Source of the DNA: the human T2T-CHM13v2.0 reference genome, Homo sapiens
Strand: one strand, 5' to 3'
Assembly: GCF_009914755.1 (NCBI RefSeq)
Contig: NC_060947.1
Length of the DNA stretch: 64,000 nt
This document shows positions 24,311 through 27,897 of the stretch, piece after piece (within the stretch, counting starts at the first letter, position 1; each line of letters starts with the position of its first letter). The notes below the pieces were generated by a model. That model was not told the DNA's origin and searched no databases. It saw only the letters and a program-made list of their open reading frames with translations. A program made the translations under genes and the position numbers.

Positions 24311-27300
24311 ATTATTATTATTATTATTATTATTATTACTGTTATACTTTAAGTCTTAGGGTACATGTGCAAAACGTGCAGGTTTGTGACATATGTATAC
24401 ACATGCCATGCTGGTGTGCTGCACCCATTAACTCGTCATTTAGCATTAGTTATATCACCTAATTCTATCCCTCCCCCCTCCCGCCACCCCATAACAGTCC
24501 CCAGTGTGTGATGTTCCCCTTCCTGTGTCCATGAGTTCTCACTGTTCAATTCCCACCTATGACTGAGAACATGCGGTGTTTGGCTTTTTGTCCTTGCAAT
24601 AGTTTGCTGAGAATGATGGTTTCCAGCTTCATCCATGTCCCTATAAAAGACATGAACTCATCCTTTTTTATGGCTCCATAGTATTCCATGGTGTATATGT
24701 GCCACATTTTCTTAATCCAGTCTATCATTGTTGGACATTTGGGTTGGTTCCAAGTCTTTGCTATTGTGAATAGTGCCACAATAAACATACGTGTGCATGT
24801 GTCTTTATAGCAGCATGATTTATAATCCTTTGGGTATATACCCAGTAATGGGATGGCTGGGTCAAATGATATTTCTAGTTCTAGATCCCTGAGGAATCGC
24901 CACACTGACTTCCACAATGGTTGAACTAGTTTACAGTCGCACCAACAGTGTAAAAGTGTTCCTATTTCTCCACATCCTCTCCAGCACCTGTTGTTTCCTG
25001 ACTTTTTAATGATCACCATTCTAACTGGTGTGAGATGGTATCTAATTGTGGTTTTCATTTGCATTTCTCTGATGGCCAGTGATGATGAGCATTTTTTCAT
25101 GTGTTTTTTGGCTGCATAAATGGCTTCTTTTGAGAAGCGTCTGTTCATATTCTTCACCTACTTTTTGATGGGGTTGTTTGTTTTTTTCTTGTAAATTTGT
25201 TTGAGTTCACTGTAGATTCTGGATATTAGCCCTTTGTCAGATGAGTAGGCAGCAAAAATTTTCTCCCATTCTGTAGGTTGCCTCTTCACTCTGATGGTAG
25301 TTTCTTTTGCTGTGCAGAAGCTCTTTAGTTTAACTAGATCCCATTTGTCAATTTTGGCTTTTGTTGCCATTGCTTTTGGTGTTTTAGACATGAAGTCCTT
25401 GCACATGCCTATGTGTTGAATGGTATTGCCTAGGTTTTCTTCTAGAAATTTTATGGTTTTAGGTCTAACATGTAAGTCCTTAATCCATCTTGAATTAATT
25501 TTTGTATAAGGTGTAAGGAAGGGATCCAGTTTCAGCTTTCTCCATATGGCTAGCCAGTTTTCCCAGCACCATTTATTAAATAGGGAATCCTTTCCCCACT
25601 GCTTGTTTTTGTCAGATTTGTCAAAGATCAGATAGTTGTAGATATGTGGCATTATTTCTGAGGGCTCTGTTCTGTTCCATTGGTCTATATCTCTGTTTTG
25701 GTACCAGTACCATGCTGTTTTGCTTACTGTAGGTTTGTAGTATAGTTTGAAGTCAGGTAGCGTGATGCCTCCAGCTTTGTTCTTTCGGCTTAGGATTGAC
25801 TTGGCAATGTGGGCTCTTTTTTGGTTCCATAAGAACTTTAAAGTAGTTTTTTCCAATTCTGTGAAGAAAGTCATTGGTAGCTTGATGGGGATGGCATTAA
25901 ATCTATAAATTACCTTGGGCAGTATGGCCATTTTCATGATATTGATTCTTCCTACCCATGAGCATGGAATGTTCTTCCATTTGTTTGTATCCTCTTTGAT
26001 TTCATTGAGCAGTGGTTTGTAGTTCTCCTTGAAGAGGTCCTTCACATCCCTGTAAGTTGGATTCCTAGGTATTTTATCCTCTTTGAAGCAATTGTAAATG
26101 CGAGTGCACTCATGATTTGGCTCTCTGTTTGTCTGTTATTGGTGTATAACAATGCTTGTGATTTTTGCACATTGATTTTGTATCCTGAGACTTTGCTGAA
26201 GTTGCTTATCAGTTTAAGGAGATTTTGGGCTGAGACGATGGGGTTTTCTAGATACACAATCATGTCATCTGCACACAGGCACAACTTGACTTCCTCTTTT
26301 CCTAATTGAATGCCCTTTATTTCCTTCTCCTGCCTGATTGCCCTGGCCAGAACTTCCAACACTACGTTGAATAGGAGTGGTGAGAGAGGGCATCCCTGTC
26401 TTGTGCCAGTTTTCAAAGGGAATGCTTCCCGTTTTTGTCCATTCAGTATGATATTGGCTGTGGGTTTGTCATAAATAGCTCTTATTATTTTGAGATACTT
26501 CCCATCAATACCTAATTTATTGAGAGTTTTTAGCATGAAGGGTTGTTGAATTTTGTCAAAGGCCTTTTCTGCATCTATGGAAATAATCATGTGGTTTTGG
26601 TTCTTGGTTCTGTTTATATGCTGGATTACGTTTATTGATTTGTGTATGTTGAACCAGCCTTGCATACCAGGGATGAAGCTCACTTGATCATGGTGGATAA
26701 GCTTTTTGATGTGCTGCTGGATTCGGTTTGCCAGTATTTTATTGAGGATTTTTGCATCAATGTTCATCAAGGATATTGGTCTAAAATTCTCTTTTTTTGT
26801 TGTATCTCTGTCAGGCTTTGGTATCAGGATAATGCTGGCCTCATAAAATGAGTTAGGGAGGACTGCCTGTTTTTCTATCAATTGGAATAGTTTCAGAAGG
26901 AATGGTAGCAGCTCCTCCTTGTACCTCTGGTAGAATTCGGCTGTGAATCCATCTGGTCCTGGACTCTTTTTGGTTGGTAAGCTATTAATTATTGCCTCAA
27001 CTTCAGAGCCTGTTATTGGTCTATTCAGAGATTCAGCTTCTTCCTGGTTTAGTCTTGGGAGGGTGTATGTGTCGAGGAATTTATCCATTTCTTCTAGATT
27101 TTCTAGTTTATTTGCATAGAGGTGTTTATAGTATTCTCTGATGGTAGTTTGTATTTCTGTGGGATCAGTGGTGATATCCCCTTTGTCATTTTTTATCATG
27201 TCTATTTGATTCTTCTTTCTTTTCTTCTTTATTAGTCTTGGTAGCCGTCTATCAATTTTGTTGATCTTTTCAAAAAACCAGCTCCTGGATTCATTGATTT

Positions 27301-27897
27301 TTTGAAGGATTTTTTGTGTCTCTATCTCCTCCACTTCTGCTCTGATCTTAGTTATTTCTTGCTTTCTGCCAGCTTTTGAATGTGTTTGTTCTTGCTTCTC
27401 TAGTTCTTTTAATTGTGATGTTATGGTGTCAATTTTCAATCTTTCCTGCTTTCTCTTGTGGGCATTTAGTGCTATAAATTTCCCTCTACACACTGCTTTA
27501 AATGTTTCCCAGAGATTGTGGTATGTTGTGTCTTTGTTCTCATTGGGTTCAAAGAACATCTTTATTTCTGCCTTCATTTTATTATGTACCCAGTAGTAAT
27601 TCCAGAGCAGGTTGTTCAGTTTCCATGTAGTTGTGCAGTTTTGAGTAAGTTTCTTAATCCTGAGTTTTAGTTTGATTGCACTGTGGTCTGCGAGACAGTT
27701 TGTTATAATTTCTGTTCTTTTACATTTGCTGAGGAATGCTTTACTTCCAACTATGTGGTCAGTTTTGGAATAGGAGTGGTGTGGTGCTGAAACGAATGTA
27801 TATTCTGTTGATTTGGGGTGGAGAGTTCTGTAGATGTCTATTAGGTCTGCTTGGTGCACAGCTGGGTTCAATTCCTGGATATCCTTGTCAACTTTCC
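24311..27897 (-). mobile_element. 5'-truncated L1 (L1PA3/4-like), antisense; copy B
   Basis: (TTA)n tail at 24311, 3'UTR, ORF2; 13-bp TSD agcaggcactttt 24298-24310 / aacagacactttt 27898-27910. Confidence 0.95.
24546..27871 (-). pseudogene. L1 ORF2p remnant of copy B, with one frameshift and one stop
   Basis: ORFs of 609 aa (26042-27871), 295 aa and 203 aa; 1-bp deletion at about 26051; TGG>TAG at 25158-25160; RT motif altered to CADD; N-terminal EN missing. Confidence 0.9.

What the first reader, a model, noticed from the sequence alone, without database searches (positions are those of the whole stretch)
27274..27735. 462-bp near-perfect inverted repeat between L1 copies B and C
The reverse complement of 27274-27735 matches 42471-42932 with one mismatch (42528), including 404 bp of perfect identity. 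It carries many private changes ([39 protein letters not shown]), while flanks diverge normally. The tract holds A/C-lineage variants absent from D, implying C was the donor and B the acceptor, and that the event was recent.
Basis: seen in the sequence. Interest (0 to 1): 0.85.

Follow-up and report, generated by a model that had tools for sequence, protein, structure and literature searches.

The report
Gene conversion between two inverted L1s
Two old, dead LINE-1 copies that sit head to head about 12 kb apart on the human X chromosome have had a stretch of about 460 bases copied from one into the other by DNA repair, which is a clean but ordinary example of a known process.

Summary
The reverse complement of 27274-27735 equals 42471-42932 except at 42528, and 404 bases are perfectly identical. 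The two L1 copies differ at 7.9% of sites elsewhere, so chance does not explain it (P about 1e-15).

B (24300-27896, minus strand, 5'-truncated) and C (about 40000-45910, plus strand, full length) are separate insertions. They have different 5' ends, their own target-site-duplication-like flanks and different lineage markers.

The tract carries 25 non-majority alleles shared by B and C. Twelve of them occur in none of 56 other genomic copies. The best third copy in the genome is 95% identical.

Lineage markers on both sides stay in cis, so this is non-crossover, non-allelic gene conversion. It covers 383-462 bp in the ORF2 endonuclease-RT linker.

Direction C to B is favoured at about 85-90%. 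The evidence is the allele load (likelihood ratio 4.1) and a lineage classifier in which the tract scores like C's flanks, not B's.

"Recent" is right relative to the elements' ages. The absolute date is loose, roughly 0-6 Myr.

The phenomenon is known for L1 and Alu. Interest is low. Ape orthologues and reads could not be checked.

The parts
24300..27896 (-). L1 copy B: a 5'-truncated L1PA-type insertion. It covers the ORF2 linker, the RT domain and the 3' end, and its tail has decayed to (TAA)n. It is the probable acceptor.
   Evidence: blastn against C gives 92.8% over 3593 columns, 27896-24307 against 42310-45895. Pfam RVT_1 matches at E 3.5e-45 in the open stretch 26045-27940, minus strand. 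The flanks read cagGcactttt at about 24291-24303 and cagAcactttt at about 27899-27911, which looks like a target-site duplication. An (ATT)n run follows on the plus strand from about 24304.
27274..27735 (-). Conversion tract in B, at its maximal extent. The minimal extent, set by the first and last shared non-majority alleles, is 27309-27691.
   Evidence: one mismatch in 462; the outermost shared non-majority sites are C 42515 and C 42897.
27897..39999 (.). Spacer of about 12.1 kb between the two head-to-head elements. The homologous parts are 14.4 kb apart. It contains older L1 fragments.
   Evidence: the repeat finder I2 reports 14413 nt between the arms. blastn shows 73-75% L1 fragments at 27898-28839.
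40000..45910 (+). L1 copy C: a full-length L1PA-type insertion with a 5' UTR, broken ORFs and an A-rich tail. It is the probable donor.
   Evidence: The 5' UTR-like start is at about 40000, and the A-rich tail ends at about 45906. AAAATAATAACT occurs at about 39979-39990 and again at about 45897-45908. Eight stop-to-stop frames of at least 120 aa overlap the span, one of them on the minus strand at the 5' edge. Pfam Exo_endo_phos_2 (E 6.4e-9) and Exo_endo_phos match in 41993-43435.
42471..42932 (+). Conversion tract in C, at its maximal extent (minimal 42515-42897). It starts in the last residues of the endonuclease domain and covers most of the ORF2 endonuclease-RT linker.
   Evidence: The endonuclease match ends at residue 180 of the frame that starts at 41993, which is about nt 42532. 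The RT match in B starts at about nt 26824, downstream of the tract.
42528..42528 (+). The single mismatch. C has T. B (27678), copies A, D and the old L1, and 49 of 50 other copies have C. It is not at a CpG.
42415..42433 (+). Cluster of four lineage markers just 5' of the tract (42415, 42427, 42429, 42433). C carries the minority 'C-like' alleles and B the majority alleles, which marks the 5' edge of the exchange.
   Evidence: allele frequency is 0.83-1.00 in the 6 C-like copies and 0.00-0.03 in the 37 B-like copies.

Best explanation
B and C are two independent L1PA-type insertions in opposite orientation. B is 5'-truncated and C is full length. They diverged to about 8%.

Long after both had decayed, a DNA break in B, in the ORF2 endonuclease-RT linker, was repaired by homologous recombination. 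The inverted copy C, 14.4 kb away on the same chromatid or the sister chromatid, served as the template. The repair resolved without crossover, most simply by synthesis-dependent strand annealing. It replaced 383-462 bp of B with C's sequence, including C's private mutations.

One later substitution in C, or patchy mismatch repair, left the single difference at 42528. The event has no evident function because both elements are dead and no gene is nearby.

Shown here: the tract, its statistical significance, its uniqueness in the genome, the independent origin of B and C, and the absence of marker exchange. Inferred: the break-and-repair pathway, the direction C to B (about 85-90%), and the date.
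For: Tract and significance: 1 mismatch in 462 against 247 in 3121 outside; P = 1.2e-15.

Copying rather than shared ancestry or constraint: there are 25 shared non-majority alleles in the tract, and 12 of them occur in 0 of 56 other copies. Only 2 such alleles occur in 3089 flank columns. The tract tree gives a B+C stem of 0.041 with tips of 0 and 0.0022.

Uniqueness in the genome:
- The whole-genome search with the tract finds C and B at 100%, then 95% and lower (40 scored of 3623 candidates).
- A 71-bp sub-query holding 6 of the derived alleles finds only B and C at 100%, with the next hit at 96% (40 scored of 770).

Independent insertions: B and C have different 5' ends and their own target-site-duplication-like flanks and tails. 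No homology extends beyond the L1 borders. They carry different lineage markers. In the flank tree C pairs with A at SH-aLRT 95 and B pairs with D at 85.

No crossover: B carries majority alleles and C minority-lineage alleles on both sides of the tract, at 42415-42433 and at 43435-44213. B's two flanking duplicated sites are still in direct order.

Direction C to B:
- Non-majority load is 3.79% for B (117 of 3089) and 5.28% for C (163 of 3089). The tract has 25 of 462. That gives LR 4.1 for donor C and P(at least 25 at B's rate) = 0.053. B's sliding windows reach at most 23 (0 of 2467 reach 25).
- The equal-size-panel lineage score is +3.3/+3.6 for the tract (94-96% of 200 subsamples positive). 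B's three flank windows score -5.3, -7.4 and -11.3 (0 of 200 positive each). C's score -1.1, +6.4 and +2.9.
- Of the copies chosen only for matching the tract, 4 of 7 fall in C's clade in the flank tree. That compares with 6 of 29 copies chosen on C's flank and 0 of 27 chosen on B's flank.

Precedent: conversion between L1PA3 LINEs, and inversion plus conversion between inverted L1PA7 LINEs (PMC5829575, passages read). Mammalian tracts are usually a few hundred bp and rarely over 1 kb (PMC3961182, passage read).
Against: - No read-level or second-assembly check was possible, so an assembly or cell-line-private origin is not formally excluded.
- No ape or other human haplotype was available, so neither the unconverted allele nor the direction was seen directly.
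- The load test alone is not significant at 5% (P = 0.053).
- The C-like reference panel has only 8 copies. The classifier is biased to negative values: the panel members' own tracts score -11.3 to +1.5.
- The tract tree places B+C beside A, L044, L004 and L010 with only weak support (SH-aLRT 84).
- Sharing with copies A and D does not discriminate over the full flanks (LR 1.27 and 0.85).
- No PRDM9-like 13-mer lies in or beside either tract (0 of 6 window matches), so nothing points to a meiotic hotspot.
Confidence: 0.8

Rival explanations
1. Same non-crossover gene conversion, but in the opposite direction: B was the donor and C the acceptor.
For: - The single mismatch is a derived T in C, which fits either direction.
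- The 8 best genomic matches to the tract are 94-95% identical. That resembles B's flank (best hits 95%) more than C's 3' flank (92-93%).
- 3 of 7 tract-ascertained copies fall on B's side of the flank tree.
- A/D sharing is uninformative over the full flanks.
Against: - The load of 25 exceeds every one of the 2467 windows of B's flank (maximum 23), and LR is 4.1 for C.
- The lineage score of the tract is positive, like C's windows, and at least 8.7 ln units above each of B's three windows.
- The tract carries alleles enriched in the C-like lineage: 42706 T is 3 of 8 against 2 of 41, 42880 G is 4 of 8 against 3 of 41, and 42836 G is 2 of 8 against 1 of 41.
Confidence: 0.1
2. Assembly or polishing artefact, or a conversion private to the CHM13 cell line, rather than a germline feature of the species.
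For: Only one assembly was examined and no reads were available. The tract is nearly perfect (1 of 462).
Against: - The tract sits inside elements that differ at 7.9% on both sides, so reads far longer than 462 bp are anchored unambiguously (inference).
- An artefact would have to rewrite about 25 or more sites in one copy with sharp edges.
- The one mismatch inside the tract argues against simple copy-paste.
- This was not tested with reads.
Confidence: 0.04
3. B and C are the arms of an inverted segmental duplication or palindrome, and the tract is a remnant of arm-to-arm homogenisation rather than exchange between independent insertions.
For: The arrangement is inverted, with 93-95% identical arms over 3.6 kb.
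Against: - Homology stops at the L1 borders.
- B is 5'-truncated at C position 42310, while C runs on to about 40000.
- Each element has its own tail and its own duplicated flank.
- Unrelated genomic copies are as close to B (95%) as C is (92.8%).
- B and C fall in different clades.
Confidence: 0.01
4. Both B and C were converted by, or descend in this segment from, a third L1 copy. Alternatively the identity reflects selective constraint or chance.
For: None was found.
Against: - No third copy exceeds 95% over the tract or 96% over the 71-bp sub-query. Only 40 of 3623 and 40 of 770 candidates were scored.
- Constraint cannot create 12 shared alleles that are absent from 56 relatives.
- Chance P is 1e-15.
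Confidence: 0.01

Closest known systems
Gene conversion between L1PA LINEs seen in human long reads (Frith and Khan 2018, PMC5829575; passages read)
   Same: This is L1-to-L1 non-allelic conversion in human DNA. One case is between L1PA3 LINEs. Another involves oppositely oriented L1PA7 LINEs, where conversion accompanies recombination.
   Different: The L1PA7 case came with an inversion. Here flanking markers and B's duplicated flanks show no exchange. This event is fixed in the assembly examined rather than detected as a read-versus-reference difference. The subfamily names of B and C were not determined here.
Non-allelic gene conversion among neighbouring Alu elements (Aleshin and Zhi 2010, as summarised in Fawcett and Innan 2019, PMC6598467; passage read)
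   Same: This is conversion between nearby dispersed repeats. The rate depends on distance and identity, and hotspots are reported especially on the sex chromosomes. This pair is on the X.
   Different: The elements here are L1s, the tract is longer than a whole Alu, and the homologous parts are 14.4 kb apart. The review cites elevated rates within 10 kb.
Polymorphic human inversions mediated by inverted repeats, including inverted L1PA3 and L1PA7 pairs (Aguado et al. 2014, PMC3961182; table row and passages read)
   Same: The architecture matches: inverted L1 copies of several kb, some 10-40 kb apart, acting as recombination substrates.
   Different: No crossover or inversion is visible here, only the non-crossover outcome. 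Orientation in other haplotypes was not checked.
Interlocus gene conversion in segmental duplications and arm-to-arm conversion in sex-chromosome palindromes (Vollger et al. 2023, PMC10172114, listing and abstract start only; palindromes recalled)
   Same: The repair mechanism and the signature are the same: a tract of near identity in diverged paralogues.
   Different: The partners here are independent transposon insertions at about 92% identity, not duplicated genomic segments. Homology ends at the element borders.
Burton et al. [quoted passage not shown]
   Same: It is an early report that an L1 copy can be overwritten by another L1 sequence.
   Different: The paper was not read, so its details were not compared.

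Membership tests
Non-allelic (ectopic, interlocus) gene conversion tract | A sharply bounded segment of near identity inside paralogues that are otherwise diverged, beyond chance | tested here: met
   1 of 462 against 247 of 3121; P = 1.2e-15; the longest other identical run is 85 bp
Non-allelic (ectopic, interlocus) gene conversion tract | The segment carries derived alleles private to the two partners, showing copying rather than conservation | tested here: met
   25 shared non-majority alleles, 12 of them in 0 of 56 other copies, against 2 such alleles in 3089 flank columns. The best third copy is 95% identical.
Non-allelic (ectopic, interlocus) gene conversion tract | Flanking markers are not exchanged (non-crossover) | tested here: met
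   B carries majority alleles and C minority-lineage alleles on both sides. B's duplicated flanks are in direct order.
Non-allelic (ectopic, interlocus) gene conversion tract | Tract length is in the range known for mammals | tested here: met
   The tract is 383-462 bp. The literature passage says a few hundred bp and rarely over 1 kb (PMC3961182).
Non-allelic (ectopic, interlocus) gene conversion tract | The pre-conversion allele is seen in an outgroup species or another haplotype, fixing donor and date | not testable with these tools
   No ape or second human assembly is held. Direction was inferred indirectly.
Non-allelic (ectopic, interlocus) gene conversion tract | The sequence is confirmed by reads that span each copy | not testable with these tools
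   No reads are available.
Independent LINE-1 insertions (target-primed reverse transcription) | ORF2 endonuclease and reverse-transcriptase domains are present | tested here: met
   Exo_endo_phos_2 and Exo_endo_phos match in C. RVT_1 matches in B at E 3.5e-45.
Independent LINE-1 insertions (target-primed reverse transcription) | Each copy has its own A-rich tail and its own target-site duplication | tested here: inconclusive
   B has an 11-bp flank match with 1 mismatch and a (TAA)n tail. C has a 12-bp AAAATAATAACT match, but it overlaps the A-rich tail and lies 9 bp from the 5' end.
Inverted segmental duplication or palindrome arms | Homology extends beyond the transposon into flanking unique sequence, and the two arms share end points | tested here: not met
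   The window self-comparison shows no homology beyond the L1 borders. The 5' ends differ by about 2.3 kb.

The most novel reading that the evidence does not exclude
The conversion is specific to the human lineage and may still be polymorphic. If so, B and C would be a currently active inverted-repeat recombination pair, whose crossover outcome would be a recurrent inversion of the 12-14 kb spacer on the X. The near-perfect tract (0-1 changes since the event) allows this, and nothing here tests it.
Probability: 0.1. Interest if true: 0.4.

Novelty: new member of a known kind. Interest (0 to 1): 0.2.

Why it matters
The finding has little functional consequence: both elements are dead and no gene is annotated within 100 kb upstream.

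Its value is as a well-delimited example showing that old L1 copies, at only about 92% identity and 14 kb apart in inverted orientation, still serve as repair templates. Three things follow:
- Such events distort divergence-based dating and subfamily assignment of individual L1 copies. Here 25 alleles moved at once.
- They mark pairs that could also produce inversions.
- L1 pairs of this kind are probably under-sampled by interlocus gene-conversion surveys aimed at segmental duplications. This is my inference; the survey's methods were not read.

Tried and rejected
- **Chance, constraint, palindrome arms, third-copy donor.** All four were tested and rejected (see the rival explanations).
It looked promising in the proximal 2.1 kb: A shares 8 of 62 C-only rare alleles against 2 of 43 B-only, and 3 of 20 in the tract. 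It lost its power over the full 3.1 kb of flanks: 13 of 116 against 8 of 89, LR 1.27.
- **First lineage score with unequal panels.** It was dominated by a pseudocount artefact and was replaced by the equal-panel version.
- **Tract tree.** It was too poorly resolved to place B+C: 48 of 58 inner branches fell under 80.
- **Identity to reference sets by region.** It did not discriminate donors.
- **Fetching more genomic copies.** I tried to fetch the other 29 tract hits and 12 copies close to C's 5' flank.
- **PRDM9-like 13-mer scan.** It gave 6 matches in the window, none in or beside the tracts.
- **Literature.** Phrase searches for L1-specific conversion studies returned few relevant papers, and I found no genome-wide survey of L1-L1 conversion in them. 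This is not proof that none exists, since subscription journals are largely absent from the library.
- **Subfamily names (L1PA5, L1PA7 and the like).** They could not be assigned because no repeat library is available.
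Full report
**Observation.** The reverse complement of 27274-27735 aligns without gaps to 42471-42932 and has one mismatch, at 42528. C has T there and B has C at 27678. The 100 columns on each side hold 11 mismatches each. Over the whole homologous span (C 42310-45895 against B 27896-24307) there are 247 substitutions in 3121 aligned sites outside the tract (7.9%), against 1 in 462 inside. The longest identical run is 404 bp and the next is 85 bp. The probability of at most one mismatch in 462 sites is 1.2e-15, or 4e-12 after correction for 3586 positions. In 20000 random placements of the substitutions, no run exceeded 211 bp.

**What the two partners are.** A blastn comparison of C against the window finds four mutually similar L1 copies:
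- A: 3843-9406, plus strand.
- B: 24307-27896, minus strand.
- C: plus strand.
- D: 54652-60321, plus strand.
- There are also older, more diverged L1 copies, at 19355-24176 (82% to C) and 50825-53952 (84-88% to C).

C begins with a 5' UTR-like sequence at about 40000 and ends in an A-rich tail at about 45906. The string AAAATAATAACT occurs on both sides of it. B stops at the position that corresponds to C 42310. It has a tail that is now a (TAA)n repeat, and it is flanked by cagGcactttt and cagAcactttt. The target-site duplication of C is ambiguous because it overlaps the tail.

Homology among A, B, C and D stops at the element borders. Pfam places the endonuclease domain upstream of the tract in C, ending at about nt 42532. 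It places the reverse-transcriptase domain downstream of the tract in B, starting at about nt 26824. The tract therefore covers the ORF2 endonuclease-RT linker. Both elements have broken reading frames. B and C are thus independent, dead insertions lying head to head. The spacer is about 12.1 kb, and 14.4 kb separates the homologous parts.

**Reference copies.** The window's genome could be searched. I collected 66 other genomic copies in three sets:
- 8 chosen as best matches to the tract.
- 27 chosen on B's 3' flank (after removing two duplicates).
- 29 chosen on C's 3' flank.
- Window copies A and D were added to these.

The self-hits (L001, L002, L011, L041), the two old or partial window copies, and L013 and L037 (duplicates by sequence) were left out. 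Differences were polarised by per-site tallies only.

**Copying, not conservation.** Measured against the majority state of the 56 copies not chosen on the tract, the tract holds 25 sites where B and C share a non-majority allele, plus the one C-only site. Twelve of the 25 alleles occur in 0 of 56 copies. In 3089 flank columns only 15 shared non-majority sites exist, and only 2 of those alleles are absent from all others. In the tree of the tract columns (62 of 68 rows, with 6 too gappy), B and C share a stem of 0.041 and have tips of 0 and 0.0022.

The genome search with the tract returns C and B at 100% and then 95% or less (40 scored of 3623 candidates). A 71-bp sub-query with six of the derived alleles returns only B and C at 100%, with the next hit at 96% (40 scored of 770). 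Among the six pairings of A, B, C and D, no other pair shows a comparable run. The largest is 122 bp for A/B, against about 69 expected.

**No crossover.** Twenty-two flank sites where B and C differ are polymorphic among the other copies. A linked subset defines a minority lineage to which C belongs:
- Four sites lie at 42415-42433, immediately 5' of the tract.
- Others lie at 43435, 43561, 43662, 43880, 43891, 43952, 44198 and 44213.

B carries the majority alleles on both sides of the tract. B's duplicated flanks are still in direct order. The exchange was therefore a non-crossover conversion and not an inversion breakpoint.

**Direction.** Three tests were run.
- Allele load. Over 3089 flank columns, B departs from the majority at 117 sites (3.79%) and C at 163 (5.28%). 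The second alignment block used 50 of the 56 loci. The tract's 25 shared departures compare with 17.5 expected from B's rate and 24.4 from C's. The likelihood ratio is 4.1 for donor C, and P(at least 25 at B's rate) = 0.053. None of 2467 sliding 462-column windows of B's 3' flank reaches 25 (the maximum is 23), while 1432 of C's 2467 windows are at or below 25.
- Lineage. Panels were defined only by the four markers at 42415-42433: 8 C-like and 41 B-like copies. B, C and the 8 tract-chosen copies were excluded, and 9 copies were unclassifiable. The B-like panel was subsampled to equal size 200 times, so that private alleles count for nothing. The tract scores +3.3 (C's version) and +3.6 (B's version), positive in 94-96% of subsamples. 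B's three flank windows score -7.4, -5.3 and -11.3 (0 of 200 positive each). C's score -1.1, +6.4 and +2.9. The score is biased downward: the panel members' own tracts score between -18 and +1.5, so the tract's value is the highest seen.
- Tract-chosen copies. In the flank tree (67 of 68 rows), 4 of the 7 copies chosen only for matching the tract fall in the clade that holds C. That compares with 6 of 29 copies chosen on C's flank and 0 of 27 chosen on B's.

Against this, the C-like panel is small and the tract tree is unresolved (SH-aLRT 84 at the relevant nodes). A shares 7 and D shares 1 of the 26 variant tract sites. But A shares 13 of 116 C-only and 8 of 89 B-only rare alleles across the flanks, giving LR 1.27, and D-sharing gives LR 0.85. 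I put C to B at about 85-90%.

**Date.** The date is an inference. One difference in 462 bp is 0.22%, against 7.9% in the flanks. Per lineage this is about 0.11%, or about 3% of B's own load of 3.8%. With assumed rates of 0.5-1e-9 per site per year (recalled, not from a call), the point estimate is about 1-2 Myr. The Poisson range for one event stretches from near zero to about 6-12 Myr. If the mismatch reflects patchy repair rather than a later mutation, the event is younger. "Recent" is therefore right in relative terms, and human specificity is not shown.

**Mechanism.** The mechanism is inferred from established knowledge of homologous repair. A break occurred in B within the tract. After resection, the broken end invaded the inverted copy C on the same or the sister chromatid, and DNA synthesis and annealing followed without crossover. 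No PRDM9-type motif lies in or next to either tract (0 of the 6 window matches), so nothing indicates whether the event was meiotic.

**Comparison with what is known.**
- Conversion between L1PA3 LINEs, and inversion with conversion between oppositely oriented L1PA7 LINEs, were described from long reads (PMC5829575, passages read).
- Inverted L1PA3 and L1PA7 pairs of similar spacing mediate polymorphic inversions, and mammalian tracts are usually a few hundred bp (PMC3961182, passages read).
- Conversion among neighbouring Alu elements is well documented, with hotspots on the sex chromosomes (review PMC6598467, passage read).
- An early L1 case is cited as Burton et al. 1991 (reference-list entry only).
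- Interlocus conversion surveys on complete assemblies address segmental duplications (PMC10172114, listing only).

I found no paper that describes this particular pair. The library lacks most subscription journals, and supplements were not consulted.

**Verdict.** This is a real, statistically unambiguous, non-crossover gene conversion tract between two independent inverted L1 insertions. C is the probable donor. It is a new example of a known process, has no evident functional consequence, and is of low interest. What remains open is confirmation by reads, the unconverted allele in apes or other humans, and the orientation of the spacer in other haplotypes.

Noticed in passing
window 3843-9406 (copy A) and 42310-44432 (copy C): A and C are sisters in the flank tree (SH-aLRT 95, shared stem 0.0095). 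In this 2.1 kb, A shares 8 of 62 C-only rare alleles against 2 of 43 B-only. Over the full 3.1 kb the contrast fades to 13 of 116 against 8 of 89. The local affinity could come from a shared source lineage or from an older, eroded exchange between these direct repeats 36 kb apart.
   Followed up: partly
window 8199-8320 and 25417-25538: Copies A and B share a 122-bp identical run, where about 69 bp is the expected longest run for their 7.8% divergence. It is far weaker than the B/C tract and was not tested for shared private alleles.
   Followed up: no
window 42310-42470 versus 42933-44432: C's 161 bp 5' of the tract finds many genomic copies at 96% identity. C's 1500 bp 3' of the tract finds at best 92-93%. 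One element (chr7 about 94.31 Mb) appears in both lists. Either decay is uneven along C or the search sampled C's lineage unevenly.
   Followed up: partly
window 6863-6876 versus 43263-43339: Copy A lacks about 77 bp that C and D have at this point of ORF2.
   Followed up: no
window 24304-24338: B's A-tail has become an (ATT)n / (TAA)n microsatellite of about 11 units.
   Followed up: no
window-wide; matches at 9247, 15149, 22227, 31412, 34927, 38991: There are six matches to the degenerate 13-mer CCNCCNTNNCCNC, where 1.38 are expected (1 of 100 shuffles reached 6). None lies in the converted tracts.
   Followed up: no
loci L019-L021, L025, L027-L029, L034, L038, L039: Ten of the copies retrieved with B's flank form a tight group with terminal branches of 0.001-0.01. 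L027 and L034 are identical over the tract columns. They look like a much younger L1 subfamily, so the reference set mixes subfamilies of different ages.
   Followed up: no
loci L052 and L053 (chr5 about 16.57 and 16.59 Mb); L036 and L037 (chrX about 100.9 and 100.68 Mb): These are pairs of L1 copies that are near-identical to each other. L052 and L053 are sisters at SH-aLRT 98. L037 was removed as a sequence duplicate. They are presumably carried inside segmental duplications.
   Followed up: no
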